Shown here: positions 1 through 59,486 of the stretch, piece after piece | How positions within the stretch are numbered: the first letter of the stretch is position 1 | Layout of the letters: every line of letters starts with the position of its first letter | IMG/VR virus record: IMGVR_UViG_3300009147_000001 | Coordinates: 32,001 to 96,000 of that record | DNA: 64,000 nucleotides | Reading direction: 5' to 3' (one strand) | Source: a virus | Translations under genes and position numbers: made by a program | Notes under the pieces: model-generated | What the model was told of the DNA's origin: nothing | Databases searched by the model: none | What the model saw: only the letters and a program-made list of their open reading frames with translations

Positions 1-1686
1 TGTACGTGTAACCAATGTTATGCCAGGTTCGAATCGCAAAAAGTCGTTTCTAACATGTGGCGTGGACTACCAGTAACATATGGTGGTCGCATTGACATGA
101 TAGCTAAAGACCAGATTGGGAGAGTATGGTGCTATGACTGGAAGACAACTTCCCGAATTCTTGATGAAGATGCGGAATCATCATTCTTACAGCTCGATGA
201 TCAGATCACTTGTGTTCCAATGAACACTGAGGCATTGACTCCAACTGGATGGAAGAGAAGATCTGAACTAGAAGTAGGAGAACTCGTACTTGCATATGAT
301 CAAAAATCAAAATCGAATAAATGGACGCCCATTCTTGCGTTCCACGATTTTGATAATGCAGAGCTATTTCAACTAAGTGACAAGACTAAATCATTCTGTG
401 CAATTACTACTGCCAACCATAGGTGGATGGGGGAGAGACCATCGTCACATGGTAAATATGCAAAAATTATCGACTGGGAACCCGATACACAAAAGATAGA
501 TGAATATAACAGTAAAGCCGCCATCTATGTTAGTGCCAACAGTGAAGTAGACGGATCACTTCCAATAACACCAGATGAGGCAGCACTAATCGCATGGATT
601 ATTACCGATGGATCTCTCACCATAAGGGGAAATTCATACCAGGCTGCTATCGCTCAGGCAAATCATAAATATGCCAATGAAATACAAGCACTAATTGATA
701 GAATAGGAATTAAGCACTCAGTGCGAGAGTATCCTGGATCGAACTTATCAAATAGACCGTACTTCAAGTGGTACCTCTCCCAGCCATACATTTCTGATCT
801 GTGGGATCGAGCTGGTATCATGGGTAGACATGGCAACTTGGATGAATTCGTTCTAGGATTGTCAGCTAAGTCCAGAACAAGTTTTGTTGAAGCTGGAATG
901 AAGGCAGAAGGATCACTTAGAAAAAACGGTAGTGGAACATTCTGTCAAAATGATGGTGAAGTAAAGGAAGCCTTTAGACTAGCAATGTTCCTGGAGGGTC
1001 GACGTCTAAGTATAGGAGGTCCCAAATACTTTGGGGTTCGCGTAGGTCGACCAGTCGCGGACGTGCGTACACTTAACACCACTAAAGTGGAGGGCAAACA
1101 TCGTGTATGGTGTATTTCCACCAAATATAACTCCTGGGTTATGCGTCAGGGTAAACAAATTACCATCACGGGCAACTCTTATTGCTGGGCTCTCTGGCAG
1201 CTTGGCTATGACATTGCTGGGTTTGTATATGTGGAAATTAAGAAAACGTACCCAAAGCCACCAGAACGACTCAGTCGACCATACAAAGGACGACTCTTCA
1301 GTACCAACAAACAACATCTGACTGATTACCGAAACTTTGTCGACACAGTGGCAGTTCAGGACGGACAAGGCTTCCAGACTGGACTCTACGACGAGTACAT
1401 TGATTGGCTCAAAACCGAAGGGCCACGCTTTACTCAACGCCATGAGATTGCGCGCAATCATCATGAGCTAGTAAATGCTGGTCGTAACATCGCCCTAGAG
1501 GCCATGGATATGACGCAAAACCCCCGGATCTACCCACAGCCAGGGCGGTTTTCGTGTCCAACCTGCCTGTTCCGACAGCCATGTCTAGGAATGAACATGA
1601 ATGAGGATGTCCAATATCTACTGGATACCTTGTTTGAGAAGCGAACACATCACTACTGGGAGGACAAACCAGTAAGCACTGATTAG
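1..1686 (+). CDS. Cas4/RecB-like PD-(D/E)XK exonuclease with intein; 5' end lies outside the window
   Basis: Frame is open from base 1. GRIDMI and YDWKT nuclease motifs; C-terminal CPTCLFRQPC Fe-S cysteines; exteins rejoin as DDQIT/SYCWAL. Confidence 0.85.
   Translation, partial: CTCNQCYARFESQKVVSNMWRGLPVTYGGRIDMIAKDQIGRVWCYDWKTTSRILDEDAESSFLQLDDQITCVPMNTEALTPTGWKRRSELEVGELVLAYDQKSKSNKWTPILAFHDFDNAELFQLSDKTKSFCAITTANHRWMGERPSSHGKYAKIIDWEPDTQKIDEYNSKAAIYVSANSEVDGSLPITPDEAALIAWIITDGSLTIRGNSYQAAIAQANHKYANEIQALIDRIGIKHSVREYPGSNLSNRPYFKWYLSQPYISDLWDRAGIMGRHGNLDEFVLGLSAKSRTSFVEAGMKAEGSLRKNGSGTFCQNDGEVKEAFRLAMFLEGRRLSIGGPKYFGVRVGRPVADVRTLNTTKVEGKHRVWCISTKYNSWVMRQGKQITITGNSYCWALWQLGYDIAGFVYVEIKKTYPKPPERLSRPYKGRLFSTNKQHLTDYRNFVDTVAVQDGQGFQTGLYDEYIDWLKTEGPRFTQRHEIARNHHELVNAGRNIALEAMDMTQNPRIYPQPGRFSCPTCLFRQPCLGMNMNEDVQYLLDTLFEKRTHHYWEDKPVSTD
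211..1176 (+). mobile_element. Intein (322 aa, class 1, LAGLIDADG-type) in Cas4-like exonuclease
   Basis: Starts CVPMNTEALTPTGW; block B TTANHRW; LIAWIITDG and MKAEG endonuclease motifs; ends VWCISTK...ITGN/S. Confidence 0.92.
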
Positions 1687-1743
1687 TGGCGGAGACTACT
1701 AAAAATGCTATAATAGTCTTGGTCAGCGGATAAGGAGGTATGA

Positions 1744-2010
1744 GTGTCAAGGACAGGTAATCCATACTATGAAATAGCCCTGGCACTAGAAGGCATAAGG
1801 CAAAAAATCTGCCCATACTCTCTGGACGATGACACTCAGTCTTGTGGCTGTAAATTTGGAATCAACTCATCATCTTCTATGTACAGTGAAGAGAATGGGT
1901 GTCCTGAACTACAGGAAATGATGACCTTCTATCGTCGCTGGGGAGAAGCACTTGAACAACACCAAAATCCAGGTACAAACGTGGCGCATTCCACTACTAC
2001 CAACCGCTAA
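1744..2010 (+). CDS. hypothetical protein
   Basis: AAGGAGG RBS upstream; TGCTATAAT extended -10-like element near 1706-1714. Confidence 0.6.
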   Translation: MSRTGNPYYEIALALEGIRQKICPYSLDDDTQSCGCKFGINSSSSMYSEENGCPELQEMMTFYRRWGEALEQHQNPGTNVAHSTTTNR

Positions 2011-2146
2011 ATGTATTAACTGTCATACGCTAAACGGATTCTATACCGAAAATGCCCACGATATAGGCCGCATACATGCGACGACAACTGGGCATTTAGT
2101 ACTAGTGGAAGAGGTACGCCAGACGTGGTTCTCGACCAAGGACTAG
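1952..2146 (+). CDS. small CxxC/HxxxxxH zinc-finger-like protein
   Basis: AKCINC...HATTTGH; overlaps neighbouring genes operon-style. Confidence 0.5.
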   Translation: MNNTKIQVQTWRIPLLPTAKCINCHTLNGFYTENAHDIGRIHATTTGHLVLVEEVRQTWFSTKD

Positions 2147-2259
2147 TCTTTGTCTGCAATCCTTGCACAAAAGGCGATCACTGCAATGCACAACCAGGTC
2201 CGGGCACATGGTGTGACTGTCAACACAGAAGGGACGACATCAAGAATGACACAGCCTGA
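2125..2259 (+). CDS. small Cys-rich protein (44 aa, not in ORF track)
   Basis: Manual translation MVLDQGLVFVCNPCTKGDHCNAQPGPGTWCDCQHRRDDIKNDTA; GAGG upstream. Confidence 0.5.
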   Translation: MVLDQGLVFVCNPCTKGDHCNAQPGPGTWCDCQHRRDDIKNDTA

Positions 2260-2344
2260 TGAGCAGTGGACTGAAGATGAGCCTGAGGAAGATGATTTTG
2301 ACGAAGAGTATGAAGAGAACGAAGAGGACGACTTAGAAGAATAA
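2246..2344 (+). CDS. very acidic 32-aa peptide
   Basis: MTQPDEQWTEDEPEEDDFDEEYEENEEDDLEE; AAGGGA upstream. Confidence 0.5.
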   Translation: MTQPDEQWTEDEPEEDDFDEEYEENEEDDLEE

Positions 2345-2488
2345 CACTCATAGATACATCTCGATCAATTAGAGCAGTTGCGCTGGGCAGACAGCGATGC
2401 TAGACTGAAGTTCACTTCCCTTTCACAACCAAGTTTGGTTATTATTCGAATAAAAATTCGGACAAATTGGTACAAAGAGGGTGAATCA

Positions 2489-4141
2489 TTGTCGATAACG
2501 AGCATTGCTGGTCTGCCCATTCGCAAAGTAACCGAAGTACCGCCACATTTTAATATGTTGGTGTATGGTGAGAGTGGTGCAGGAAAAACCCGATTAGCAG
2601 GCTCCTGTGACGCCATCCCAGAGATGCGCCGAGTCCTGTTCATAGACATTGAGGGTGGCACACTAACACTTCGGAATACCTTTCCCAATGTCGAGGTTGT
2701 CCGAGTCCGCAATTGGCAAGAAATGCAATCCGTATACAATGAACTCCATGCTGGACAACATGACTATACTACAGTAGTCGTAGACAGTTTAACAGAATGC
2801 CAGAAATTATGCTATTCTTCCGATACTGAGGTACTAACTCCAAGTGGTTGGAAGTTAATACCAGATCTAGCAGAAAATGTCGATCTTATTGCCCAATACG
2901 AAATGGGCACCGAGTTAATATCCTTTGCTCAACCGTCGCTGATAATGAATTATCACCATCATGGTAGTATGGTAAACATCGCATCCAAGTCGTCTGCACT
3001 ACTTGTTACTCCTAATCATAGAGTACTTACTAAGACTCCCGCTGGGTCGATTGAAGTTCGAAAGGCTGAAGACCTTCGATCAAAACTGTTACTGCCAACC
3101 GCTGGTACACTACTTTCTATTGGTGGTCCTACCCCCGAACAGGGTAGACTATTAGTTGCTTGGGCTGCTGATGGACACCGTAATTTTAATGGTATGAAGT
3201 TCCACTTGAAGAAACAAGAAAAAATCGACCGTGTTAAGAAACTTATCATCGACTGTGGATTAACATACGAGGAGCCTGACTGGAAAGACGATGGAACTTA
3301 CATAATTGTGAGAAATGCTCAGTCAGTGACAAAATTCATGCCTGACCGCATGTGGCACATTGAATCCATGATGTGGTCATTGCAGACACGTGACGCTATC
3401 ATGTCGGAAATGCCTCTCTGGGACAGTACACCACAACCATCAGGATCTGGCTCATTCAGTTATAGAACTAAATATAAATCAAATGCAGACGCAATTTCTG
3501 CTCTCGCTGCTCTTACTGGATGGAGTGTCAATATTGCAATTGACACTACAAGAACTACTATTTACCGACTTAACTTAATTCGCACTTCATGGAGAACACA
3601 ATCAGTTATTGAAAACGTAGATTACAATGACAGCGTATGGTGTGTCTCTGTACCTTCAGGATTCATTGTCACTCGCCGTCAAGGTAAAATTACAATCTGT
3701 GGTAACTCTATGGACCGTATAATGCGTAAACTCGTAGAAGAATACGAGGAACGTGATGCAGACGTTCCAGGCATTCGGGAATGGAACATCAATATAGAGC
3801 AAACACGCAAATTCGTTCGAGCCTTTCGTGACTTGCCCGTAAATACGATCTTTACTGCTTTAGTTAAAATGGACAAAAATAATCGGACTGGAGCCATAAA
3901 GCGTAAACCATCGTTAAGCGGCAAAGTAGCCGACGAAGTTGCCGGTTTCCTTGACATTGTTACATATCTATATACCAAGGAGGTTGAAGGAGAATACAGA
4001 CGTATACTGTTATCCGGAGCCACTGAAGACACGGTAGCCAAAGATCGCACCGGATTGCTACCAATGTTGATTGAGTCACCTACCATGGTTGAGATCTGGA
4101 ATGCAGTCAAGGAGATAAAGACGGATGGCCAGTCCGCTTAA
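2489..4141 (+). CDS. AAA_24/Sak4-like ATPase (RecA-like recombinase) with intein
   Basis: Walker A GESGAGKT, FIDIEGG and VVDSLTE motifs; TTG start at 2489 after GAGGG; followed by a DUF669-type gene. Confidence 0.88.
   Translation: MSITSIAGLPIRKVTEVPPHFNMLVYGESGAGKTRLAGSCDAIPEMRRVLFIDIEGGTLTLRNTFPNVEVVRVRNWQEMQSVYNELHAGQHDYTTVVVDSLTECQKLCYSSDTEVLTPSGWKLIPDLAENVDLIAQYEMGTELISFAQPSLIMNYHHHGSMVNIASKSSALLVTPNHRVLTKTPAGSIEVRKAEDLRSKLLLPTAGTLLSIGGPTPEQGRLLVAWAADGHRNFNGMKFHLKKQEKIDRVKKLIIDCGLTYEEPDWKDDGTYIIVRNAQSVTKFMPDRMWHIESMMWSLQTRDAIMSEMPLWDSTPQPSGSGSFSYRTKYKSNADAISALAALTGWSVNIAIDTTRTTIYRLNLIRTSWRTQSVIENVDYNDSVWCVSVPSGFIVTRRQGKITICGNSMDRIMRKLVEEYEERDADVPGIREWNINIEQTRKFVRAFRDLPVNTIFTALVKMDKNNRTGAIKRKPSLSGKVADEVAGFLDIVTYLYTKEVEGEYRRILLSGATEDTVAKDRTGLLPMLIESPTMVEIWNAVKEIKTDGQSA
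2810..3706 (+). mobile_element. Intein (299 aa, class 1) in AAA ATPase
   Basis: ECQKL/CYSSDTEVLTPSGW...VTPNHRV...VWCVSVPSG...ICGN/SMD; endonuclease motif LVAWAADG, second motif degenerate. Confidence 0.92.
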
Positions 4142-4672: not shown

Positions 4673-6880
4673 TTGACAACAACCTTCCGGGATGCAGTAG
4701 AACATACTGAGGAACGGCGGAGCGATTTCTTTAAACTGATTTTCGGTAATGCTCAGGGTTTTGTCTGCATCGCCTTCAAGCCTCACACCGAACGGACAAT
4801 GGAAGAAGAGTACTTTCACTACCCTAGTGAACTGGCTCAAATGTGTAAGAGGATAGATCAAAAAGCTGGTACACTGACACATTTGTACTTCTGTCCAAAT
4901 CTACTCCACACCAGAAAACGGAATAAATCAAACGTCAGTCTGTGTACTGTCATCTGGTCAGACCTTGATACCTGTAATCCACAACTGATGCAAGTCCCAC
5001 CGTCAATTGTCGTTCAAACCTCTAACAAGCGCTGGCAAGCACTGTGGCGATTGGAAAGCCCTATTGCCCCCATAGAGGCAGAGGCAATCAGCCGGCGAAT
5101 CGCCTATTACCATGCTGATCAGGGTGCAGATAAGAGTGGTTGGGATCTCGGCCAACTCCTCAGAGTTCCGTATACACCTAACTATAAATACGGAGACATT
5201 AACACTGCACCATTAGTGGTCGTTGATGGTGTAACATCTGGTTTGTATCGGCCAAGTGACTTCAACATATACCCAGAAGTAGAAGCATTAAGGTTCGCCG
5301 CTGACCCCATCCCCGTAGACCTACCCAAAGAAGATCCAGTAGATATTCTGCAACGCTATCGGCAAACACTAAATCCACAAGCCTTTGATCTTTATACCTC
5401 CACTCCTACGCAAAACCAGGACTGGAGTGCTAGAATGTGGAAGCTACAAAAACTCTGCGTTGAAGCTGGAATGTCACCGGACGAAATCTTTGTTATCTGT
5501 AAAGCTGCTAAATGCAATAAGTACATTCGAGATGGTCGACCGAACGAGCAACTCTGGACAGAAGTTCTGCGGGCCTGTATTAAAAACGTTGAAGTACACA
5601 ATCTAGCACCAACAGCGACCTCCAGCATTCCAGAATTCCTAACCAGAGATGAAATGAGTCTAGTACAGGAGCAAGAGACCTTTGTTGAACGATATATAAG
5701 GTGGGCGTCGGAACTCACCGATGCCCCGAAACAGTACCACCAAGCTGGTGCCTTTATTATCCTCAGTTCCCTACTATGTGGCAATTGTCATCTGCCAACG
5801 TCGTTCGGCACTATCAATCCCAACCTGTGGTTTATGCTATTAGCCGATACTACTATTACTCGCAAGACCACAGCAATGAACATTGCCATGAAACTACTCT
5901 ACTCCGTCGATGAGGAAGCCATGATAGCCACCGACGGCTCTGTCGAAGGCATTCTGGCCGGACTTATTGATCGAACGAGAAGGCCATCAGTATTACTACG
6001 AGATGAGTTTTCCGGACTGCTTGAAGCAATGGCTCGCAAAGACTACCTAGCCGGCATGATGGAATCTTTGACTAAACTCTATGATGGTGAAGACGTCAAG
6101 CGGCTACTCCGCAAAGAAACTATTCACATTAAGAGTCCTCGGTTTATTCTATTTGCCGGTGGACCGAAAACCAAAACCCAAAGCATTCTCACCGAAGAAC
6201 ACATTTCTAGCGGGTTCATTCCGAGATTTATCGTCATTACTGCCGATGCAGATCCGAGTCTTATTAAAGACGTTGGGCCACCTCGACCAGTAGACTATGA
6301 GTCTCGCGAACTCATTATGAATGAGCTCCATGACTTGTGTGGGCACTACACCCGACCCCGACCGGCTATCATGGCCAACGGTGAGGCATTAGGTACGATT
6401 CGTCCTGAATTTGAAGCTAACTTGACACCAGAAGCCTGGCGCAGGTATAATCATTTCGAGCGTTCACTAACTAAAACTGCACTTGATAGTGAACTATTTC
6501 ACCTGACTCCGGTTTATGACCGACTGGCCAAGTCCACTCTTAAAGCTGCTATTCTTATTGCTGCTTCGCGTCAACGCGGTGAAGGAATTACAGTCGAACT
6601 ATCTGACCTCCTGCATGCCATGTACTACTGTCGATTCTGGTATATCTACGTTAGTGAAATAGTAAATGGTATTGGCAAGACCACAGATGAAAAACTTATT
6701 GATCAGATAATGAATGTTATTCACCGATCAAAGGAGGCAGGCGTTTCCCGAGCTGAATTAATGCGACTGTTCCGACTAGATGCCAGGCGGGCTGATTTGA
6801 TATTTACTACCATGATACAACGACGATTGGTATATCCAATTATGTATCAGGGTCGCGCACGTTATGTTGAGGTGACGTAA
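4673..6880 (+). CDS. DNA primase/helicase (RepB-like primase plus DUF3987-like helicase)
   Basis: WSDLD, QTSNKRWQALW and LLRVPYTPNYKY primase motifs; RKTTA and DEFSG in the C-terminal part; GGAGG RBS. Confidence 0.85.
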   Translation: MTTTFRDAVEHTEERRSDFFKLIFGNAQGFVCIAFKPHTERTMEEEYFHYPSELAQMCKRIDQKAGTLTHLYFCPNLLHTRKRNKSNVSLCTVIWSDLDTCNPQLMQVPPSIVVQTSNKRWQALWRLESPIAPIEAEAISRRIAYYHADQGADKSGWDLGQLLRVPYTPNYKYGDINTAPLVVVDGVTSGLYRPSDFNIYPEVEALRFAADPIPVDLPKEDPVDILQRYRQTLNPQAFDLYTSTPTQNQDWSARMWKLQKLCVEAGMSPDEIFVICKAAKCNKYIRDGRPNEQLWTEVLRACIKNVEVHNLAPTATSSIPEFLTRDEMSLVQEQETFVERYIRWASELTDAPKQYHQAGAFIILSSLLCGNCHLPTSFGTINPNLWFMLLADTTITRKTTAMNIAMKLLYSVDEEAMIATDGSVEGILAGLIDRTRRPSVLLRDEFSGLLEAMARKDYLAGMMESLTKLYDGEDVKRLLRKETIHIKSPRFILFAGGPKTKTQSILTEEHISSGFIPRFIVITADADPSLIKDVGPPRPVDYESRELIMNELHDLCGHYTRPRPAIMANGEALGTIRPEFEANLTPEAWRRYNHFERSLTKTALDSELFHLTPVYDRLAKSTLKAAILIAASRQRGEGITVELSDLLHAMYYCRFWYIYVSEIVNGIGKTTDEKLIDQIMNVIHRSKEAGVSRAELMRLFRLDARRADLIFTTMIQRRLVYPIMYQGRARYVEVT

Positions 6881-7176
6881 TGCCCTATCTCGGGGTTAGA
6901 ATAATGCGAGACACTAGACTTATCGAAGCCAAACTACATGGATTAGATATTCCAGAAAATATAAATGTAGATGAATTTAAACAACATGTAGACAAAACAG
7001 TATCACGGGGCAATGTCATTGGATTAACCAATGCCGAACTCTGCCAGACTATTGCCGATAGCTTAGTCGTACTATATAGTGATAAAAAAGAGATTCGATG
7101 GGCTGAATGCCACATCATCAATGCTGACGGAATAATGTATGGTTTTGCGGCTATAGATGAGGATAACGATGAGTAA
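6880..7176 (+). CDS. hypothetical protein
   Basis: Start overlaps the primase stop (TAATG). Confidence 0.55.
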   Translation: MPYLGVRIMRDTRLIEAKLHGLDIPENINVDEFKQHVDKTVSRGNVIGLTNAELCQTIADSLVVLYSDKKEIRWAECHIINADGIMYGFAAIDEDNDE

Positions 7177-36131: not shown

Positions 36132-36373
36132 TCAGGTCTAGCTCCTACTGATATTGACGAAATCTGTCCGTGCACGCAGGCTTCCCACCGGTGATATCCA
36201 CCCTCTGGATTATCAGATAATGTAAATACCGGGCGGATCTCTATGCTAGCCCACTCTTTGCCCGCAAAATCTCGGTCATAGGTCTGCACACACCACGCCA
36301 GGGCTTCGTCCAAACTAGTAAACCCACCACGCGCCACCGAGAGATTACGCTCCTCAGTAAAATCGCTTATCAT
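36128..36373 (-). CDS. hypothetical protein
   Basis: ATGA-coupled to the portal stop. Confidence 0.6.
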   Translation of the reverse strand: MISDFTEERNLSVARGGFTSLDEALAWCVQTYDRDFAGKEWASIEIRPVFTLSDNPEGGYHRWEACVHGQISSISVGARPE

Positions 36374-38937
36374 CGTGTCCCACTCGTTCCTGATTTGTCC
36401 ACACCGGTAGTTTGATTGCCCACCGATGGTACGGCAGGATTAGACTGCCGGGGCGGGCCGACCCGGGCCGGTTTTGGTGGCGCTACATCAGAACCGGTAG
36501 CCGTGCGCGCACCTTCATCAGATGTCATGGGCTGAGCCGCCTGCGGGCTCGCCGTGGTGAAGCGGCGAGTTTCATGCTCGGCGGGTGGCAGGTCCATTTC
36601 ACGACGGAGGAAATCTTCTAGCCGCTCATCCGGAATAATCGAGTTAGCGCCAACAAAGTTACGGTAGGCAAACGACATAGTCCGCAGGTCTTCCCATTCA
36701 CCTATCCGCCGAGCCCGCAACTTCGGATATTTGCCTCGGGCAAAGTTAAAATCTACCAACTGCTTTATCACATATTTGTTGAAGGTATCAGCCACAGTGT
36801 TGGCAATATATCGAGTAGACTTGAAGAACATGCTCATTGAATCTTCTTTAGCATTCGGATCATTGGCAAACGGGGCGAGGATGTTTTCATAAATCTTCAT
36901 GTCATGGTGAGCAATAGACGTCAAACAGTCTACCGGCTGACCTTCAAGTTTGGCGAATTCAATAGTCCAACTCTCCGGGGCCACGATATGGGCACGTTCG
37001 TTGGTACGCAAATTTCGCCCTAAATCTTCAGCAATCGCCCGGTCGGCCTTGCTGAAACCCATGGGCAGCTTAATGATCGGTACACCAATACCGTGTCGTT
37101 CCTTTTGAATTGAATCTATCTTGTAAAATGTGTTTCCAGTAAAATATACCTTACCGTTTCTACGAGCTAGCCACGTTCCGTTCTTCGTTTTTGGACACCA
37201 GACTATTCCAGTGTAAGTAGTGCGTTCTATCTTTGATCCATATCGCGATGCTGACTGTAGTGGTTTAGCACCGACACGTTCGCGAGAAATAAGCAATTGA
37301 TGAACTATCGCATGTTGATAATCTGGATCTTGATGGTTCCAAGATTTATAATTTACTCCCCAACCGAGTAACATGCAAGCTAATGCAATCGGTTCAAGTC
37401 TTGGCTTATCATTCTGTCGTATCTCACTATTTGTACATCCATCGCCTCTCAAACAGGTAGTAACAAATAGTTCTAGTTGAGCCTTAGTCAAGGATAAGAT
37501 AAAATTTGTAGTAACTACTTTATTCTTTCCTTTTACAAAATTACTCAATAATTTTGTTGCATTTGCATTTAAACGAAACTGGCATCCGTTTGGATCATGT
37601 TTTTTAGTATGTTCGTACCATCCTGCTGGCAACCTGCCGTGACCAACATTTGTCCGATCCGGCGCATATGCAGGACCAAATACACCAGTCAAACATGTCC
37701 TAATTCTGTCAAAGAATGGTTGGTCATAGTTTTGTGCAATTGCAGAACCATATCCTTGCCAACCACCTTCTGTTATAAACCATCCTATTAGTTCTACCAA
37801 ATCATCAGTATATTTTGGTTCAGTTGGTATATCAGCATTGACCGCGGCACGTGGAATAATATGACGCTGACGCAAATTTTCTGTTGTGACAAACGTGTAT
37901 GGAGCCTTCCAGGTTGTATCTTTTGTTAGCCAACGATGATCTGGCGTGGAAATTGAAGAGATTTGTTGAGATTCCATGTGTATTACATCGTGTGTACCAG
38001 GATAACGTCTAATATATTGAACTTCATTCCACTCAGACATACCAGTCTCTGGATTGATTGTTAATACCATATCTCCTTGAATTAGCTGGTTGTGAAATAG
38101 CCACCCACGCTGGGTTAATATTTCTGTATCTTCGGACTTGCAGTCTTTATAAAAGTAGTGCTTGTAGGCCGATCGGAGCAGTGAAATACCTCGTAAGTCA
38201 CCCGCTTCTTGTTCAAGCACGAACACTACGAGTTTGGCAATGGGAATTTCTAGTTGAATCCAACCGGTTGCTTCAGTAGGCTCCATAATCAGAGTTTCTG
38301 GTCCACCATTTGCATCGTAAATCCACTCACGAATGTCCAATGGGTGACGTGGGGCAAGCTTCTTTATAACAATACGCCCATCGCTATCCTGCCCATAAAC
38401 CTTTTCCATTGGAAGATAACCATACTCACACATGAGCAGGGCGTCTTCGACGATCCGACTCCAAGGCACGTTTAGATTATTGAAAAGATTGTCTTCCACA
38501 AAAGTGGCAATATTGTGGTCTAAGACCGAGTCAGAGGCTGGCTCCATAAACCAGCGCGCCGCCATCACTGGCGTTTTGACATAACGCAAGGCCCCGCGAA
38601 CCGTACCATCGGCCCGTTTCATTTCGTAGTAGGTGCGAATACCTTGCTTATCCCGCAGTTCCGGAATTTGTTCTTCTCTAGTCCAGGCAGTCCACGGAGA
38701 CAAACTGGTATAGCCCATCTCTTTAAATGCCGTTGCCGTAGACATCTTGGGGTCGCGCTCGGCCATAATGATATATGAACCGTTGGCAGGATCGTGATTG
38801 GCCCCAACGAGTTCGTATTTGTCATCGAGGAGTACTTCGCGCAAATTGCGGGTACGCTCAGTCTGCACATCTTCGATGGCGCGGATGGCATCATCCTCGA
38901 TGGTCACTGACTCCCCCTCATGACGAGTTGCCGCCAT
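36370..38937 (-). CDS. portal protein (DUF935/Mu gp29-like) with intein
   Basis: GISLLRSAYKHY...ERHGIGVP and LVDFNF motifs. Confidence 0.9.
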   Translation of the reverse strand: MAATRHEGESVTIEDDAIRAIEDVQTERTRNLREVLLDDKYELVGANHDPANGSYIIMAERDPKMSTATAFKEMGYTSLSPWTAWTREEQIPELRDKQGIRTYYEMKRADGTVRGALRYVKTPVMAARWFMEPASDSVLDHNIATFVEDNLFNNLNVPWSRIVEDALLMCEYGYLPMEKVYGQDSDGRIVIKKLAPRHPLDIREWIYDANGGPETLIMEPTEATGWIQLEIPIAKLVVFVLEQEAGDLRGISLLRSAYKHYFYKDCKSEDTEILTQRGWLFHNQLIQGDMVLTINPETGMSEWNEVQYIRRYPGTHDVIHMESQQISSISTPDHRWLTKDTTWKAPYTFVTTENLRQRHIIPRAAVNADIPTEPKYTDDLVELIGWFITEGGWQGYGSAIAQNYDQPFFDRIRTCLTGVFGPAYAPDRTNVGHGRLPAGWYEHTKKHDPNGCQFRLNANATKLLSNFVKGKNKVVTTNFILSLTKAQLELFVTTCLRGDGCTNSEIRQNDKPRLEPIALACMLLGWGVNYKSWNHQDPDYQHAIVHQLLISRERVGAKPLQSASRYGSKIERTTYTGIVWCPKTKNGTWLARRNGKVYFTGNTFYKIDSIQKERHGIGVPIIKLPMGFSKADRAIAEDLGRNLRTNERAHIVAPESWTIEFAKLEGQPVDCLTSIAHHDMKIYENILAPFANDPNAKEDSMSMFFKSTRYIANTVADTFNKYVIKQLVDFNFARGKYPKLRARRIGEWEDLRTMSFAYRNFVGANSIIPDERLEDFLRREMDLPPAEHETRRFTTASPQAAQPMTSDEGARTATGSDVAPPKPARVGPPRQSNPAVPSVGNQTTGVDKSGTSGTR
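37132..38142 (-). mobile_element. Intein (337 aa, class 1, LAGLIDADG-type) in portal
   Basis: YFYKD/CKSEDTEILTQRGW...STPDHRW...LIGWFITEG...LRGDG...VWCPKT...YFTGN/TFY. Confidence 0.92.
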
Positions 38938-39807: not shown

Positions 39808-39949
39808 CTTGCCGCAAGTCTGATAATGCCTCGATAACTATCATGCTAGTTAATTCTCGGTGTGCCAATATTCGCGCAATACTGATAATTGCATCAATTA
39901 ATCCAACCGTAATACCATCCTCATGCCGACAATCTGTTACTATGTCCAT
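39761..39949 (-). CDS. hypothetical protein
   Basis: Start overlaps the TerL stop (TGATG). Confidence 0.5.
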   Translation of the reverse strand: MDIVTDCRHEDGITVGLIDAIISIARILAHRELTSMIVIEALSDLRQDEDVCSIVGISRIPT

Positions 39950-41148
39950 CAGAAGTGCACATTCGTGGTAAAGTAACCCTTGTCAGTCAATGAAGTACCT
40001 AGCTCACCCGGGGTGTAAATGTCGGCCAAGCTCATAGTGCAGCCTAGCTTGAAAATATGCATTAACCCATACCGTAACGCGTCAATGGCATGATCTTCAT
40101 ATTTAATCGCGTCTTCCCGTGGGTTACGCGGTGTGCGACCAGACGGCGAATGGGCTCGATAGTTATTCATTTCGTGAATAAGCGCGCGACATGAGTGGTC
40201 AACATATAACCACGGTTCCTCCAGCGGAGTACCATACTCGTCGACCTCACCCACTTGCTGAGTGCGCAAAAATGTCTTCACCAAATCAATGCCCTCACGC
40301 CAGTTGGCTTTACTCTCTGGTCTAGCCACACATGGTGAAAATTTCTGCGATACAGTTGCTACCGCTTCTGGATCAGCAGCATCGCCAAAACACAGGTCTA
40401 TTCGATAACCCTCTGGTTGGTCACGCGTGCGCAGTTCACCGAGAAAGTCATCGAGGCGCACCCCGGCTTTATAGTGTTCTCGCCAGACATGCACTCGATC
40501 CATCGGGTCAACCTGAAACTCCACGGCGGCCATGGGATTAACATAGCCCCAGTCAAAACAAATGAAGTTCTTCCATGCCGGGTTATAGGTAATCTGTTTG
40601 ACGTGAGTCTGTTCATCCCACTCGCTGAAAATCTTTCCCATAAACGAGGTAAAGTCAGCAGCAATTTCCTGTTGAAACCACTCAAAGGGGAGTGTACGCT
40701 CTAGAAGGATAATCTCAGGATCATTACGACCACCTGGATAAACGACCGGATTCTCCCAGGATGGAAATCGCCACGACTCAAAGTCACTAAATGCTGGGTT
40801 TCGCCCGTATTGCCATAAATCGTGTAACCAGTTTTGTCCCTCTGGTGTAGAAGAAAACGTCGCCTGACCACGCTTGTCTGCTAAGGCCGGCTGAATGTAT
40901 CGACTCCACGTTTCACGATTGTGCTTCGCTGCCTCGGACATTATCACATAGTCAAGTTTTTCCCCAACCAGATTGTCCGGGCGATCAGCGCTACGCACCT
41001 CAATAATAGTATTCCATGGAAACTGGATGAACATGTCACCAACACGTTTGTTGTAACTTTTCTTTACTTTCTTTTCTTGCCCTAACCGCAGACCAACTAT
41101 CATATCCTGCCAAATAACTCTGAATTCCTTCTCACCAAGGTCAATCAT
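39949..41148 (-). CDS. terL: terminase large subunit, C-terminal part (Walker B, motif III, nuclease)
   Basis: VIMSEAA, SSTPEG, FDWGY and DHAIDALRY motifs; out of frame with the N-terminal part. Confidence 0.9.
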   Translation of the reverse strand: MIDLGEKEFRVIWQDMIVGLRLGQEKKVKKSYNKRVGDMFIQFPWNTIIEVRSADRPDNLVGEKLDYVIMSEAAKHNRETWSRYIQPALADKRGQATFSSTPEGQNWLHDLWQYGRNPAFSDFESWRFPSWENPVVYPGGRNDPEIILLERTLPFEWFQQEIAADFTSFMGKIFSEWDEQTHVKQITYNPAWKNFICFDWGYVNPMAAVEFQVDPMDRVHVWREHYKAGVRLDDFLGELRTRDQPEGYRIDLCFGDAADPEAVATVSQKFSPCVARPESKANWREGIDLVKTFLRTQQVGEVDEYGTPLEEPWLYVDHSCRALIHEMNNYRAHSPSGRTPRNPREDAIKYEDHAIDALRYGLMHIFKLGCTMSLADIYTPGELGTSLTDKGYFTTNVHF

Positions 41149-43474
41149 AGGTATTTCCGGTGTAATAGACAGAGCTGTTTCGCTTTGCCAACCAGTTACC
41201 ATTTTTGGTAGTAACACACCATACTGTACCTATATATTGCTCACCCCCTATCTTGATGCCTCGGGGACCAGCAACATATTGCGCCCGCTGTGGATTAATA
41301 AATCGACTCGTCAGTAATCCCAAAACCCAACCGTTGTTGCCATCCTTTGTTCGTGGTCTTATACTAGTAGCTATACCAATGAGTGAGCAGGCCAATTGAA
41401 CGGCAAATAGCTGCTCCTTACTCTCCTGATATATGACTTTTTGACATGATTCATAGCCGTCTTTATACTGTTTTCCGACTGTTCCATCCCCTAGCATAGA
41501 TATATCAACAAACAATTTTAATTGTGAAAATGTGAGATCCATAATGAACTGTGGATCAACTATCTTGTGGTCTAGGAATACCTTCTTGAATTCTCTTCCC
41601 AAAACTTTTCCTATATTAAATCGTGTCATATTCGGACTTGTTGCATAAATGCGGTCAGACCAATATTCAAACGCATGATAACTATCACCCAGGTGTGGGT
41701 TGGGACAGAGTTCAGTAAGTGCACGTCGTATTCGCGCTACATTATCAGGATTTGCCACATGAGATTGATGAATGGTTAACCCATCACCTCTACTGCCATT
41801 CCTCGATCCTTCAGCCCACAGCCACGCGACTAGTTCCACGAAAGCATCTGTATACTTTGGCTCGGTGGGTACAGTTGCACATACCGCAGCCTTCGGAATG
41901 CGATCGTCGGCAGTTAATGTTGCTGTTGTCCGCCAGGTCCAACCATTATCAGTTTCTGGTAATAAGTGCTCAATTGGTTTCAGCACCGATGGAAGTTTAG
42001 ATCCATCCTTTTTATAGCCTATACCTGGCCTTCGCTGAGTTAACCAACGATGATCAGGAGTGGTAAGAGCAGAAAAAGAATGTCCTTCCATCCTAATAAC
42101 ATCATGCGTCCCTGGGTTTAGTAATACCTTCTCAACGGTATCCCACTCACTCAAACCAGTTATTGGGTTAATCGAAAGCGTCTTGTCACCAACGACAACC
42201 TCATCATACCTTAACCAGCCACGCGCAGTGAGAATTTCAGTTTCTTCATCTACACAAGGCCCCACTATCCAAACGTGTTTATTAGGAATCATGAGTATTG
42301 GTTCGACTTCGCGTGCTCCCATGAATGTATTGTGGGTAGCAATATAGGAGCCGCCAGCTAGGTATAGATGAGATTTACTATCGACTGCAATACATTTCAT
42401 CCAAACTGGTCTCGTTATGGGCGTGATGGATGTAATAAATCTAAAGTAATGCTTGCGTCTCGGTAGCGCACGCTGTGCAGCTAACTTCCTTGGTAAGCTG
42501 AATACGTCTATGATATTACCTGTGTGGATTCGATAACACAGCTTCTTCGGTACACCATAGAGCTTACCCACTCTCTGTGACCGCACCACTCGTCCGCCAA
42601 GTGAGCAGATAAGTGAGTCTACTGCATCCACGAGATTTTTGTTTGTACTATCAAAGTCCACATGATTATTAGCCACTGAACCATCACTGTCCATGAGTCC
42701 ATGTAGAAGGTCCATTCGCTGTTCCACAGAGCCGTACAAGTACGTTGTTGGTACATGCTTAGTACCTAGTAATAGTTGCTCCCTTAATAAAACTCGTAGC
42801 CCATGGATTCTCCATGACGTACATCGATCCTTGTGCTCATGTCGCGTTACCTCCCACCCACGCGCGCTTATTTTGTCAATTATCCATGAATCAGAGTCCG
42901 GTATAGTAACGATACCATCGCTGCTACTACCATCGCCTAACCATACACCCAATACGTATGGGTCAATTGGAAGGTCCTTTTTCGCGTATTGTACTGGACC
43001 AGCCAATGTGATCGCATGATTTACCTCTGGCTTCTTTGATTTTGTATACAATGTTGAGGCAATTTTATTAGTGGTACGGACCGCGGGTTTGGTCATACGA
43101 CGAGAATCGGTTAGCGCCTTCCGCGCTGCTTTATCGTACGTTAACCATTCATGCTCACCATGAGCAACTAAGGTAGACCCGTCATCAAAAGTTACCAGAA
43201 AGGCATCAGTGCGAGCCTGTATATTGCTCGTACCTATAACGGTACATGGATGCCCGTGTTCGTCAAAGACAATATCACCATGCTCAAGTACTCCCATGGG
43301 CACCATGCCGTCAGGCGTGGGAATTGGCGTATTTACTTCTAAGAGTTTCCCGAACCGACGCCCACAGACGGGAATCTTAAATCTGGCGGTACTGTCATGA
43401 AACAGTCGCTGCTTTTCATGTGGCACATAGCCAATAAGGTCAAAGTACTTTTCCTTGGAAATAGCTAACGACAC
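41141..43474 (-). CDS. terL: terminase large subunit, N-terminal part with two inteins; ends TYD-stop
   Basis: PHEKQ, Walker A GRRFGK/T and WIVGP/TYD. Confidence 0.9.
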   Translation of the reverse strand: MSLAISKEKYFDLIGYVPHEKQRLFHDSTARFKIPVCGRRFGKLLEVNTPIPTPDGMVPMGVLEHGDIVFDEHGHPCTVIGTSNIQARTDAFLVTFDDGSTLVAHGEHEWLTYDKAARKALTDSRRMTKPAVRTTNKIASTLYTKSKKPEVNHAITLAGPVQYAKKDLPIDPYVLGVWLGDGSSSDGIVTIPDSDSWIIDKISARGWEVTRHEHKDRCTSWRIHGLRVLLREQLLLGTKHVPTTYLYGSVEQRMDLLHGLMDSDGSVANNHVDFDSTNKNLVDAVDSLICSLGGRVVRSQRVGKLYGVPKKLCYRIHTGNIIDVFSLPRKLAAQRALPRRKHYFRFITSITPITRPVWMKCIAVDSKSHLYLAGGSYIATHNTFMGAREVEPILMIPNKHVWIVGPCVDEETEILTARGWLRYDEVVVGDKTLSINPITGLSEWDTVEKVLLNPGTHDVIRMEGHSFSALTTPDHRWLTQRRPGIGYKKDGSKLPSVLKPIEHLLPETDNGWTWRTTATLTADDRIPKAAVCATVPTEPKYTDAFVELVAWLWAEGSRNGSRGDGLTIHQSHVANPDNVARIRRALTELCPNPHLGDSYHAFEYWSDRIYATSPNMTRFNIGKVLGREFKKVFLDHKIVDPQFIMDLTFSQLKLFVDISMLGDGTVGKQYKDGYESCQKVIYQESKEQLFAVQLACSLIGIATSIRPRTKDGNNGWVLGLLTSRFINPQRAQYVAGPRGIKIGGEQYIGTVWCVTTKNGNWLAKRNSSVYYTGNTYD
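41153..42256 (-). mobile_element. TerL intein 2 (368 aa, class 1)
   Basis: WIVGP/CVDEETEILTARGW...TTPDHRW...LVAWLWAEG...MLGDG...YYTGN/T. Confidence 0.92.
42329..43345 (-). mobile_element. TerL intein 1 (339 aa, class 3, Leu1) in the P-loop
   Basis: GK/LLEVNTPIPTPDG; WCT triad from HEW, KCIAV and ATHN/T; LGVWLGDG and LMDSDG endonuclease motifs. Confidence 0.9.
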
Positions 43475-57482: not shown

Positions 57483-58554
57483 CAGATTACCGTCATAAGC
57501 TGCTGACAAGATCGTGATGCATCAACCAACACTGATAAAGAATCCTATTAGTTGGGAGTAAAAACAAATAAAAACAGGGGACAAATCACCCAAAACCGGG
57601 ACAAGCGTGGACTTTGTTGCTCATGATCTTTTTGGGTACTCTTCCAGGAGCGCGATATTCCTGTGAGAACAAAACCGACATCTCGGTCTTTTTGATTTCG
57701 AGAATCAGTCCAAAACGGACAAATCGTCTCGTAAGGGATGTTAATTCGTAGGCGAGAAAACGCGTACCTTCGTCCAAAGCAGGGGAACAGACTCTTTCAG
57801 AATATGATGGTTTGTCCTGTGACGCACTTCACAAGATCACAAGCCATCCAGGAATCGGGACAATTCGGACATTCTAGACATTTCACCCGATATCTAGACA
57901 AACCACCACGAAAGCCACGTAAAACATCACCCTCCCCTAACAACCCCGCCCCCCTCACCACGAAAAGGTCCGCAGATCCACATATCCGCAACTAAGGGTA
58001 ACTAAAGTCCTATTTAAATAGGGACAAAATAGGACATACTAGGCGTGGGAGCGCTTCCAATGACAGTTTATTGACTGACGGATTAGCTTCTTATCCGATA
58101 ATATTCGCTGTCTACTCATCCGTTCGTACTAAGCATACCTACCCGAAAGTGAGTGGATCTCTCCTGTTGGATGAATAGATCACCTACTCTTGCCGTTTAT
58201 CCGCTAACACATTAATTGTCAACACATCCAAATCAGACCCCACATGCAGCTCATCCCTCACAATCCATTCACTACAATAAGTACTGTTTATTTTTAAACA
58301 CCAACATCATCCGTTCGGAGGATGTCAAGATACTTAAGATAACGTTTATTCCCTGACACATTGACCGTTCCCTATTAACTTGTCGATCCCTATCAATTTC
58401 CACCTGCGGCGCGCGGTGCCTGCCTGTGGGGGTCTGTCATGTCCCGCAGGGCCTCATGGATAGACTTATATCGAACTAACCGTGCGTTCGTTGGGCCAGA
58501 GCCTGATGGCACCCAACCTCGTTTTTCCTTTTCTCACTGAGTCCTGTTTGGTCA

Positions 58555-58583
58555 TTGACACAATAGTTGTTTTCTGCTAGGCT
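58555..58583 (+). promoter_or_regulatory. SigA/HrdB-type promoter, probably leaderless transcript
   Basis: TTGACA-N17-TAGGCT with TG extension; ATG lies 6 nt after the -10; no SD sequence. Confidence 0.75.
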
Positions 58584-58589
58584 CAACGG

Positions 58590-59486
58590 ATGGCCATCAA
58601 ACGAGTCGATGACATTCTCATCATTCTCAACGCAAACCTGATGTGGGACAGTCGAGTCATGGATTTGCCCATTGAGGCAAGTATGGAAACAGCAATATGG
58701 CTAGATGCGCTATACACCAAGACCTTACTAGACAGTGACGCCAACCCAGACTTTTTGAATTCAGACCAATTAACCAAGAGTCAACAGCGTAAACTTAACT
58801 GGGTGACTCAAGCGCAAAGCTCGCACATTGGCCTCAATAGTGGCGAGGTGCGCGCCTGGTACGCGTGTTTGCGTACGTACAAACAACCACTTGTTAGTAC
58901 CGACAAAAGGCTCACCGAGACTGGCTTAGCGGTGGCTGAGCAGATTTATGACATTTTGAGCACAGCGCGGCAAAAGGATAAGGCCATTGTTGACCCTAAG
59001 CAGTGGACCCAAGCCGACCAAGCAATTCTTCGCGGCCGGCTCACCTGGCGTCAGGTGGGATTGCTGGCCATTATTTATGCCGCGCTCGATGAGGCCATTG
59101 CGCGCTACGATGCCGATACTCCCGCGTTGCCCACTCCCGAGCGCACCGCAGGAGCGGATTTGACTTTGGCGGTAACGACACGTATTCGCACCGAATCCCC
59201 GATGGCGTACTTATCCGGTGATATCAACAATTACGCCGAAACCGTGCATGCCATTGCTTATGTGCTAAATGCCAAGACCCCGGACAATCCAGACATTACC
59301 GCCTTTGTCCCGATGAGCAGCTTGGGGGGTAAAGGCAGAACGGACACGGCTGAGTTGGCGAAATTGGGCCTCATTGACATACGTACCGTGCACGATGGCT
59401 CCCGAGGCCGGCCCAAGGTTGGCATTTCGCCCACCCGGTGGGGCACGTTGTTGCTGCGTGAACTCACACTTCGGCACTTGATCTGA
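58590..59486 (+). CDS. unknown protein with possible C-terminal winged-helix
   Basis: 298 aa; ELAKLGLIDI...RGRPKV...TRWG resembles a wHTH wing. Confidence 0.7.
   Translation: MAIKRVDDILIILNANLMWDSRVMDLPIEASMETAIWLDALYTKTLLDSDANPDFLNSDQLTKSQQRKLNWVTQAQSSHIGLNSGEVRAWYACLRTYKQPLVSTDKRLTETGLAVAEQIYDILSTARQKDKAIVDPKQWTQADQAILRGRLTWRQVGLLAIIYAALDEAIARYDADTPALPTPERTAGADLTLAVTTRIRTESPMAYLSGDINNYAETVHAIAYVLNAKTPDNPDITAFVPMSSLGGKGRTDTAELAKLGLIDIRTVHDGSRGRPKVGISPTRWGTLLLRELTLRHLI

What the first reader, a model, noticed from the sequence alone, without database searches (positions are those of the whole stretch)
41135..41155. TerL frame is broken three codons after intein 2 by GAT TGA C: possible +4 ribosome hop, split gene or sequence error
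Seen on - strand: AAT/ACC TAT GAT TGA CCT TGG TGA GAA G. Removing 4 nt gives the expected TYDLGEKEF. A tRNA-Asp hop from GAU over the U of the UGA stop onto GAC would restore exactly that sequence. An ATG (MIDLGEKEF, 41148) also overlaps the stop, so a 70-aa spliced Walker A fragment plus a 399-aa partner is an alternative. Known: stop-hopping on matched codons and T4 gene 60 bypassing exist. From memory, bypassing was also proposed for a Streptomyces phage terminase, which should be verified. TerL is essential, so a real lesion needs a rescue mechanism.
Basis: partly seen in the sequence, partly recalled or inferred. Interest (0 to 1): 0.72.

Follow-up and report, generated by a model that had tools for sequence, protein, structure and literature searches.

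The report
Intein-linked coding gap in phage terminase
The only DNA-packaging motor gene of this complete 110-kb soil phage really is broken by four extra bases three codons after an intein, and related wild phages keep the same kind of break, which travels with the intein, so ribosomes most likely hop over it, a very rare way of reading a natural gene.

Summary
Contigs from two sequencing studies carry it letter for letter.

Six further intein-bearing terL lineages stop at the same place after TYD, TYE or TYDC, and a seventh changes frame there. DNA is in hand for two of them and deduced for a third: they carry 4, 4 and 8 extra bases. Intact homologues read GPTYDLGEKEF without a break.

A near-identical phage pair (L008 without the intein, L088 with it) shows that intein and extra bases occur together as one insertion difference.

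In the four alleles whose DNA is known or deduced, the extra bases lie between two GAN codons, and a stop follows the first. Skipping them restores the invariant motif. No start codon is conserved for a separate C-terminal gene.

- **Best reading (0.45):** a short ribosomal hop from GAU to GAN.
- **Rivals:** a split TerL restarted at AUG or AUU (0.30); a frameshift that adds residues (0.12).

The closest known cases are the T4 gene 60/MobA cassette and the phiHau3 terminase gaps.

The same genome has a second stop-containing 6-base insert, in a helicase P-loop.

Unchecked notes from this scan report similar gaps beside intein homing sites in other phages.

The parts
43346..43474 (-). TerL N-extein segment 1 (43 codons, GTG start, ends in Walker A GRRFGK)
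   Evidence: Translation; boundaries from alignment to intein-less homologues
42329..43345 (-). Intein 1 (339 aa), inserted between K and T of the P-loop. It has no N-terminal nucleophile (starts with L), a Cys in block F (KCIAVD) and ends THN|T, so it looks like a class 3 intein. It carries a LAGLIDADG/Hom_end domain.
   Evidence: the same intein is in frame in L005 and L049
42257..42328 (-). TerL extein segment 2 (24 codons, TFMGAREV...HVWIVGP)
41153..42256 (-). Intein 2 (368 aa): starts CVDEE, has a TPDHRW block and ends YYTGN with Thr as the next residue. It has two LAGLIDADG-like motifs; the Pfam hit is weak (E=0.04).
   Evidence: 66-72% identical inteins sit at the same terL site in P0124-P0130
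41144..41152 (-). C-extein stub ACC TAT GAT (T-Y-D). GAT at 41144-41146 is the proposed take-off codon.
   Evidence: the stub is conserved as TYD or TYE in every broken allele
41141..41143 (-). TGA stop that ends ORF-A, immediately 3' of the take-off codon
41140..41143 (-). The four extra bases (TGAC; the alignment equally allows TTGA at 41141-41144). GAC at 41140-41142 is the proposed landing codon and CTT at 41137-41139 the resume codon.
   Evidence: Comparison with intact alleles that carry the same intein (L082: AAT ACC TAC GAT CTC GGG; L091, L093, L086, P0124) and with intein-less alleles
41143..41148 (-). ATG (41146-41148) and ATT (41143-41145) in the ORF-B frame. These are the possible restart codons of the split-gene rival.
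   Evidence: ATG is absent in L013 (ACG) and L088 (TTA), while ATT is present in all alleles whose DNA is known. No strong Shine-Dalgarno sequence lies upstream.
39949..41139 (-). Rest of TerL (LGEKEF... to the stop): the remainder of the ATPase plus the nuclease domain
   Evidence: Splicing plus a 4-base skip gives 466 aa, against 465-476 aa in the closest intact homologues.

Best explanation
The break is a real, selected coding gap that belongs to a mobile intein cassette.

Proposed decoding (inferred): ribosomes translate the N-extein and both inteins and decode GAU (Asp). They then meet UGA in the A site. The peptidyl-tRNA-Asp detaches and re-pairs four bases downstream on GAC. Translation resumes at CUU. 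One precursor chain results, and after both inteins splice out it reads ...WIVGP-TYD-LGEKEF..., a normal TerL of 466 aa. Relatives would hop 4 bases (GAU U GAA) or 8 bases (GAU UAAUU GAA).

Shown here:
- The break is real.
- It is conserved across diverged lineages.
- It occurs only in alleles that carry the intein.
- It differs from an intein-less near-identical phage as one unit with the intein.
- The extra bases lie between two GAN codons.
- No other terminase was found in the genome.

Inferred only: the hop itself, and its purpose. By analogy with T4 MobA/gene 60, the gap may protect the allele from a homing endonuclease or limit TerL dosage.
For: 1. Real sequence: two studies give the identical break. 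The genome is complete. No other terminase was found.
2. Conservation: N-fragments ending TYD*, TYE* or TYDC* occur in P0125-P0129, and P0130 changes frame at the same place. Cluster members sit on many contigs. DNA is in hand for L013/L081/L089/L090 (GAT TGA A CTT) and L088 (GAT TAA TTGAA TTA). The intein tree has terminal branches of 0.15-0.29 substitutions per site, so the break has persisted through long divergence.
3. Tie to the intein: no intein-less allele among the 80 loci is broken. Intact alleles carrying the same intein also exist: P0124, L082-84, L091, L093, L086.
4. One unit: L008 (no intein) and L088 (intein plus 8 extra bases) have flanks identical at 924/924 and 754/756 positions.
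5. Hop anatomy: in the window, L013, P0129/P0032 and L088, the first GAN codon is followed directly by a stop. Skipping 4 or 8 bases restores the invariant GPTYDLGEKEF.
6. Second GAN looks untranslated: it is GAA in 3 of 5 broken alleles. Glu occupies that position in only 2 of 141 intact proteins (Fisher p=0.0002).
7. No conserved restart: the ATG is lost in two lineages, and no Shine-Dalgarno sequence precedes it.
8. Precedents: phiHau3 terminase gaps of 7-10 bases, with a junction peptide seen by mass spectrometry (PMC10732093). The T4 gene 60 gap is co-mobile with MobA and protects against it (bioRxiv 10.1101/2022.08.31.505936). Stop-hops over matched codons are known in E. coli (PMC5009743).
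9. Second site: the same genome has ATG TAG CTG in a helicase P-loop, absent from a relative.
Against: - The landing codon GAA is not cognate for tRNA-Asp in three alleles.
- The TYDC* alleles (at least 10 contigs) and P0130 (TYDKQT...*) have no stop directly after GAY. Their DNA could not be fetched.
- No shared RNA structure was found within 60-80 bases on either side (z from -0.4 to +0.7).
- No Shine-Dalgarno-like stimulator was seen in the bases just upstream of the take-off codon in any of the three alleles with DNA (read by eye).
- Unstimulated stop-hops in E. coli are inefficient (my recollection of the literature).
- There is no RNA, ribosome or protein evidence.
- The phage tRNA-Asp is ordinary.
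Confidence: 0.45

Rival explanations
1. Split TerL. Translation terminates at TGA. The N-fragment splices to a 70-aa P-loop peptide ending GPTYD. A separate C-fragment is made by termination-reinitiation at the overlapping ATG or ATT. The two pieces then assemble non-covalently into an active terminase.
For: In the window the ATG overlaps the stop (ATGATTGA). An ATT sits one codon before the second GAN in all four alleles with known or deduced DNA. N-fragment tails vary (TYD, TYE, TYDC, TYDKQT...), as expected for unconstrained ends. Genes split by homing endonucleases that reassemble are known: Aeh1 nrdA, phage 25 gene 43, T4 39/60 (PMC2988022). The phage encodes an initiator-like tRNA-Met.
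Against: L013 (ACG) and L088 (TTA) have lost the ATG. In L088 no canonical start lies between the upstream stop and LGEKEF, leaving only AUU, a very poor initiator. There is no Shine-Dalgarno sequence, although 22-35% of long ORFs in this genome have a strong one. The cut falls in the first turn of helix 73-90. It separates strand 1, the P-loop, helix 1 and strand 2 from the rest of the ATPase core. There are no extension tails of the kind seen in MobA- or MobE-split genes.
Confidence: 0.3
2. Programmed frameshifting without a hop. At the stop, the ribosome shifts +1, or +2/-1 in the 8-base alleles. It decodes the second GAN, giving TerL with one to three extra residues (TYD-D-LGEKEF here).
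For: GAU UGA C shares the weak UGA-C stop context of the prfB frameshift site (prfB context from established knowledge). The second GAN always encodes an acidic residue.
Against: tRNA-Asp cannot re-pair on AUU. No upstream Shine-Dalgarno-like stimulator is visible in the bases just before the site. L088 would need a different shift and would gain 2-3 residues. The GPTYDLGEKEF motif shows no length variation in 141 intact proteins, the same argument made for phiHau3.
Confidence: 0.12
3. A non-functional lesion: an assembly error, a defective phage, or a costly allele that spreads only through the intein's homing drive. A variant of this is rescue by rare DNA-level revertants in the population.
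For: Homing elements can spread despite a cost. The L008/L088 pair shows a recent gain or loss. The intact allele P0124 nests near broken alleles in the intein tree, and the AU test rejects monophyly of the broken alleles at p=0.023.
Against: Two studies give the identical sequence. The genome is complete with terminal repeats. The break persists across inteins only about 70% identical to each other, with the N-extein motifs, Walker A and intein catalytic residues all intact. Gap lengths known or deduced are 4, 4, 4 and 8 bases, plus 8 deduced for P0130, and never a multiple of 3. The flanking repeats are imperfect, so slippage back to the intact form is unlikely.
Confidence: 0.06

Closest known systems
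Phage T4 gene 60 50-nt translational bypass within the MobA homing-endonuclease cassette (Bonocora et al. 2011, as cited in bioRxiv 10.1101/2022.08.31.505936)
   Same: Both are untranslatable inserts in an essential phage gene. The take-off codon is followed directly by a stop. The gap sits next to a homing-endonuclease element and, in a near-identical phage pair, is present or absent together with it.
   Different: The gap here is 4-8 bases, not 50. It has no take-off hairpin. Take-off and landing codons match in only two of three positions in most alleles. The endonuclease sits inside an intein rather than being free-standing. The hop is not demonstrated.
Streptomyces phage phiHau3, StrepC.1 prophage and S. 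catenulae prophage large-terminase coding gaps (Smith et al. 2013; PMC10732093)
   Same: Both are short frame-breaking inserts (7-10 bases there, 4-8 here) in terL. In both, the flanks are contiguous in homologues and the junction is too conserved to accept extra residues.
   Different: Those gaps begin with the rare codon UUA and are proposed to sense tRNA availability. They have a proposed 5' stem-loop and Shine-Dalgarno stimulators, and no intein. Here the gap begins with a stop, shows no such signals, and is tied to an intein.
Synthetic stop-hops in E. coli (matched codons flanking a stop; Weiss et al. 1987, as cited in PMC5009743)
   Same: The geometry is the same: codon, stop, matching codon. 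The tRNA in the P site re-pairs a few bases downstream.
   Different: Those are artificial constructs of low efficiency. Here the arrangement is a natural, conserved feature of an essential gene. In the 4-base form the landing codon overlaps the stop.
Phage genes split by homing endonucleases and reassembled as subunits (Aeh1 nrdA/MobE, phage 25 gene 43, T4 39/60; PMC2988022)
   Same: An essential phage enzyme gene is interrupted in association with a homing element, leaving two open reading frames.
   Different: No endonuclease gene lies between the halves. The second half has no conserved start codon or ribosome-binding site. There are no extension tails. The N-fragment would be only 70 aa.
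prfB (RF2) +1 programmed frameshift
   Same: In the window, a UGA followed by C sits in the A site and the shift is to the +1 frame.
   Different: There is no slippery P-site codon and no upstream Shine-Dalgarno sequence. The model does not fit the 8-base alleles.
Fractured genes with split inteins (Dassa et al. 2009, PMC2677866)
   Same: A phage or environmental gene is broken in association with an intein.
   Different: The intein here is contiguous and complete. The break lies three codons past its C-terminal splice junction, so trans-splicing cannot join the halves.

Membership tests
Programmed translational bypassing (T4 gene 60 type) | Take-off and landing codons are read by the same peptidyl-tRNA | tested here: inconclusive
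   Window: GAU to GAC, both Asp codons. L013, L088 and P0129/P0032: GAU to GAA, with a mismatch at the third position.
Programmed translational bypassing (T4 gene 60 type) | A stop or slow codon lies immediately 3' of the take-off codon | tested here: met
   UGA in the window, L013 and P0129; UAA in L088. From the protein sequence alone, this is not met in the TYDC* alleles or P0130.
Programmed translational bypassing (T4 gene 60 type) | A stimulatory RNA structure at or in the gap | tested here: not met
   No shared or unusually stable fold within 60-80 bases on either side (z from -0.4 to +0.7). The gap is too short to hold a hairpin.
Programmed translational bypassing (T4 gene 60 type) | One polypeptide is made from two ORFs, lacking the residues of the gap | not testable with these tools
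   No protein or ribosome data exist. No RNA run holding the sequence was listed.
Programmed translational bypassing (T4 gene 60 type) | The gap belongs to a homing-endonuclease mobile cassette | tested here: met
   L008 and L088 have identical flanks (924/924 and 754/756) and differ by the intein plus 8 bases. No intein-less allele is broken.
phiHau3-type terminase coding gap | A short frame-breaking insert whose flanks are contiguous in homologues | tested here: met
   4 or 8 extra bases relative to GPTYDLGEKEF
phiHau3-type terminase coding gap | The gap starts with the rare codon UUA | tested here: not met
   The gap starts with UGA or UAA.
RF2-type +1 frameshift | A slippery P-site codon that re-pairs in the +1 frame, plus a Shine-Dalgarno sequence 3 bases upstream | tested here: not met
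   GAU would have to re-pair on AUU, which does not pair. No strong Shine-Dalgarno sequence precedes the ATG or ATT, and none is visible just before the site. L088 needs a different shift.
Split gene with two independently translated subunits | The second ORF has a conserved start codon and ribosome-binding site | tested here: not met
   ATG is present only in the window and P0032, and is ACG or TTA in L013 and L088. Only ATT is shared, and there is no Shine-Dalgarno sequence.
Split intein / fractured gene | The intein is divided between the two ORFs | tested here: not met
   Intein 2 is complete from Cys1 to the terminal Asn, and the break lies after residue +3.
Canonical (class 1) intein, for intein 2 | Cys/Ser at position 1, a block B TxxH motif, a terminal Asn and a nucleophile at +1 | tested here: met
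   C407, TPDHRW...YYTGN|T; these residues are invariant across P0123-P0130. Splicing itself was not tested.
Large terminase (TerL), P74-26-like ATPase | Walker A, the ATPase core and a nuclease domain that are homologous to solved or annotated TerL proteins | tested here: met
   phmmer of the homologue P0008 against P74-26 TerL (4ZNJ/4ZNI) gives E=6e-25. tblastn matches annotated actinophage terminases at 32-35% identity. Relatives carry precomputed PF03237/PF17288 hits. The window's own fragments get no Pfam terminase hit.

The most novel reading that the evidence does not exclude
Short, stop-started coding gaps are a recurrent companion of inteins in phage genes. The gap arises at or near the endonuclease target and is inherited with the intein. 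It would then be read through by an unstimulated or host-assisted ribosomal hop. This phage would use the trick twice: in terL (4 bases, out of frame) and in the SNF2 helicase P-loop (AUG UAG CUG, 6 bases, in frame). The second would be the first natural in-frame stop-hop. The gap's function would be protection of the allele from cleavage by its own or a rival LAGLIDADG endonuclease. One such rival is the related intein that homes two codons downstream (P0132/L085).
Probability: 0.3. Interest if true: 0.88.

Novelty: new variant of a known kind. Interest (0 to 1): 0.76.

Why it matters
Natural genes that rely on ribosome hopping are extremely rare. The known cases are T4 gene 60 and its homologues, yeast mitochondrial inserts, and the candidate phiHau3 terminase.

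Here an essential, single-copy phage gene carries a 4-8-base gap. The gap is conserved across diverged wild phages and occurs only with an intein. Alongside it there are an intein-less near-identical control and intact alleles that carry the same intein.

That gives a compact, directly testable system of about 100 bases for asking three questions:
- How do ribosomes skip very short gaps without obvious RNA signals?
- Can near-cognate landing codons suffice?
- Why do homing elements carry such gaps?

If the split-protein rival is true instead, it would be the first TerL ATPase assembled from a 70-aa P-loop peptide and a separate body. That would also be unusual.

For annotation, such terL genes are currently called as two unrelated ORFs.

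Tried and rejected
- **Contig look-up closed.** The Logan contigs behind P0125, P0128/P0266-68, P0129/P0032, P0130 and P0124 could not be read. Their junction DNA is only deduced from the two overlapping protein frames, or is unknown.
- **RNA evidence.** No RNA holder was listed, so nothing can be said about expression.
- **Close phage relatives.** blastn against the phage collection found nothing.
- **More broken alleles.** A junction pattern scan of viral contigs found no new allele. The intein alignment found nothing in prokaryote genomes. A search with the first 60 residues of ORF-B found no further C-fragment partners.
- **Host.** TerL relatives sit in MAG bins of several phyla: Chitinophagaceae twice, Pedobacter, SAR202, a cyanobacterium and Saccharibacteria. 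The host remains unknown.
- **Alternative genetic code.** Rejected. Reading TGA as a residue continues in a frame unrelated to TerL, and L088 uses TAA.
- **Suppressor or odd tRNA.** The genome has 29 tRNAs and no suppressor. Its tRNA-Asp has a normal 7-base anticodon loop.
- **RNA structure.** No stimulatory structure was found.
- **Transcriptional slippage.** There is no homopolymer run at the site.
- **Back-up terminase.** Three Pfam terminase families found nothing elsewhere in the genome. The same search also misses the window's own broken, divergent TerL, so this negative is weak. The single match to P0003 is the firmer evidence.
- **Other broken genes.** ORFs of relatives G001 and G002 were run by tblastn against the genome. 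This gave only in-frame intein insertions, the known terL break, and one frame change at genome 65436-66114. I set that last one aside because the query ORF looks like an antisense reading.
- **Single origin of the break.** Monophyly of the broken inteins is not supported (AU p=0.023), so a single origin cannot be claimed.


Full report
**What is there**

On the - strand the window reads AAT|ACC TAT GAT TGA CCT TGG TGA GAA.

ORF-A (43474..41141) encodes, in order:
- 43 TerL residues ending in the Walker A GRRFGK.
- A 339-aa intein inserted between K and T of the P-loop.
- 24 extein residues (TFMGAREV...WIVGP).
- A 368-aa intein (CVDEE...YYTGN).
- T-Y-D, then TGA.

ORF-B lies in the +1 frame. 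Its ATG (41148) overlaps the end of ORF-A, and it reads MIDLGEKEF... for 399 aa.

Intein-less homologues of about 470 aa and up to 73% identity read IVGPTYDLGEKEF with no interruption. The window therefore has four extra bases. With both inteins spliced out and the four bases skipped, the product is 466 aa.

**Not an error, not a defective element**

The genome is a 110,163-bp virus record with direct terminal repeats and a CheckV completeness of 100%. Logan contigs of two runs from two studies cover the site with zero differences. One of the two runs may be the source sample.

The genome holds one TerL homologue, and three Pfam terminase families found no other. That Pfam search also misses the broken TerL itself, so it is weak evidence on its own.

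**The break is conserved**

Searching with intein 2 found six further terL N-fragment clusters that carry the same intein at the same site. Five of them stop right after it:
- P0126, P0127 and P0129 end TYD*.
- P0125 ends TYE*.
- P0128 ends TYDC*.

The sixth, P0130, runs on out of frame (TYDKQT...*). The TYD* and TYDC* forms each have several cluster members on many contigs, with different N-exteins.

DNA at the junction is available or deducible for these alleles:

| Allele | Junction | Source |
|---|---|---|
| L013/L014/L081/L089/L090 | AAT\|ACC TAC GAT TGA A CTT GGT GAG | |
| L088 | AAT\|ACC TAC GAT TAA TTGAA TTA GGT GAA (8 extra bases, C-frame +2) | |
| P0129/P0032 | TAT GAT TGA R CTN | deduced from the two overlapping frames, |

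Intact alleles with the same intein at the same site also exist: P0124 (N|TYDLGEKEF), L082-84, L091, L093 and L086.

No intein-less allele among the 80 viral loci is broken.

The broken inteins differ from each other by terminal branches of 0.15-0.29 substitutions per site. Their catalytic residues, the N-extein motifs and Walker A stay intact. The intact P0124 falls near two broken alleles, and the AU test rejects monophyly of the broken group at p=0.023. A single origin is therefore not shown.

**The gap and the intein go together**

L008 (no intein: GGT CCC ACA TAT GAC TTG GGT GAA AAG) and L088 (intein plus gap) have flanks identical at 924/924 and 754/756 positions.

The only differences, apart from the intein itself, lie within about 20 bases of it:
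- CCC>CCG
- ACA TAT>ACC TAC
- GAC>GAT TAATT GAA
- TTG>TTA

Which of the two is ancestral cannot be told.

**Anatomy of the gap**

In the four alleles with known or deduced DNA, the extra bases lie between two GAN codons. The first (GAU) is followed directly by a stop. The spacer is 1 base (U) or 5 bases (UAAUU). Skipping from the first GAN onto the second restores GPTYDLGEKEF exactly.

The second GAN is GAA in 3 of the 5 alleles where it can be read. Glu occupies this position in only 2 of 141 intact proteins (Fisher p=0.0002). This suggests that the second GAN is not the codon that supplies the invariant Asp.

The Tyr codon is TAT in two broken alleles and TAC in two. The overlapping ATG is therefore not conserved, and only ATT is shared. 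No strong Shine-Dalgarno sequence precedes it, although 22-35% of long ORFs in this genome have one, against a 3% background.

No shared RNA structure was found.

In an AlphaFold model of the intact homologue P0008 (mean pLDDT 81), the intein site is P71|T72 and the break follows D74. That is the first turn of helix 73-90. A split there would leave strand 1, the P-loop, helix 1 and strand 2 on a 70-aa peptide.

**Reading**

A short ribosomal hop explains four alleles with one rule and gives a normal protein. Its weak points are these:
- The landing codon is near-cognate (GAA) in three alleles.
- No stimulatory signals were found.
- The TYDC* and P0130 forms do not fit the rule, and their DNA could not be read.

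A split TerL restarted at AUG or AUU cannot be excluded. A frameshift that adds residues fits poorly. Confidences are 0.45, 0.30 and 0.12, with 0.06 for a non-functional lesion.

**Known relatives of the phenomenon**

The phiHau3 terminase has two 10-base UUA-led gaps, and a bypass junction peptide was seen by mass spectrometry in E. coli (PMC10732093).
- The T4 gene 60 gap is co-mobile with the MobA endonuclease and protects against its nicking (bioRxiv 10.1101/2022.08.31.505936).
- Stop-hops over matched codons are known from constructs. No natural in-frame stop-hop is known (PMC5009743).
- Genes split by homing endonucleases that reassemble are also known (PMC2988022).

**Second site in the same genome**

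The SNF2 helicase reads GAC GAC ATG TAG CTG GGT TTA GGT AAA ACT, that is DDM*LGLGKT. A 56%-identical relative reads DDMGLGKT. Another relative has an intein four codons downstream, between GLGK and T. That site was not tested further.

Other unchecked notes of this scan report similar gaps at intein homing sites in other phages.

Noticed in passing
Outside the window: G000:C1:28690-28720 (+ strand; L193:291-321), about 3.3 kb before the window start: The SNF2-type helicase has a 6-base insert, TAGCTG, inside motif I (GAC GAC ATG TAG CTG GGT TTA GGT AAA ACT, DDM*LGLGKT). Relative L194 reads DDMGLGKT. The helicase of relative G002 has an intein between GLGK and T, four codons downstream. This is a candidate in-frame stop-hop from AUG to CUG, or a restart at CUG.
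   Followed up: partly
window 42329-43345 (-): Intein 1 in the TerL P-loop looks like a class 3 intein. Its first residue is Leu (Ala in L049). It has HEW in block B and Cys in block F (KCIAVD), and it ends THN followed by Thr. It carries a LAGLIDADG/Hom_end domain. The same intein is in frame in L005 and L049.
   Followed up: partly
L085 and P0132 (other phages): A related intein (51% identity to intein 2) sits two codons downstream of the intein 2 site (GPSY|intein|TLAEKEF). The stretch GP-TY-D therefore holds two homing sites, and the window's gap lies 3 bases past the second.
   Followed up: no
window 36370-38937 (-) and genome 31527-33683 and 34471-36114 (window about 1-4114): At least three more genes of this phage carry in-frame inteins. 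One is the 855-aa ORF next to terL (P0204, portal-like Pfam hits). The other two are genes whose relatives lack stretches of about 700 and 890 bases.
   Followed up: partly
Whole genome G000: The genome has 29 tRNA genes, including two tRNA-Cys and an initiator-like tRNA-Met (a 1-72 mismatch and a G-C-rich anticodon stem). There is no suppressor tRNA, and no tRNA lies inside the window.
   Followed up: partly
G001 (IMGVR_UViG_3300037761_000250), 5765-6985 and 57912-59051: This 79-kb relative holds two TerL homologues, one with intein 2 intact and one without. It may be a chimeric or concatenated contig, or a genuine duplication.
   Followed up: no
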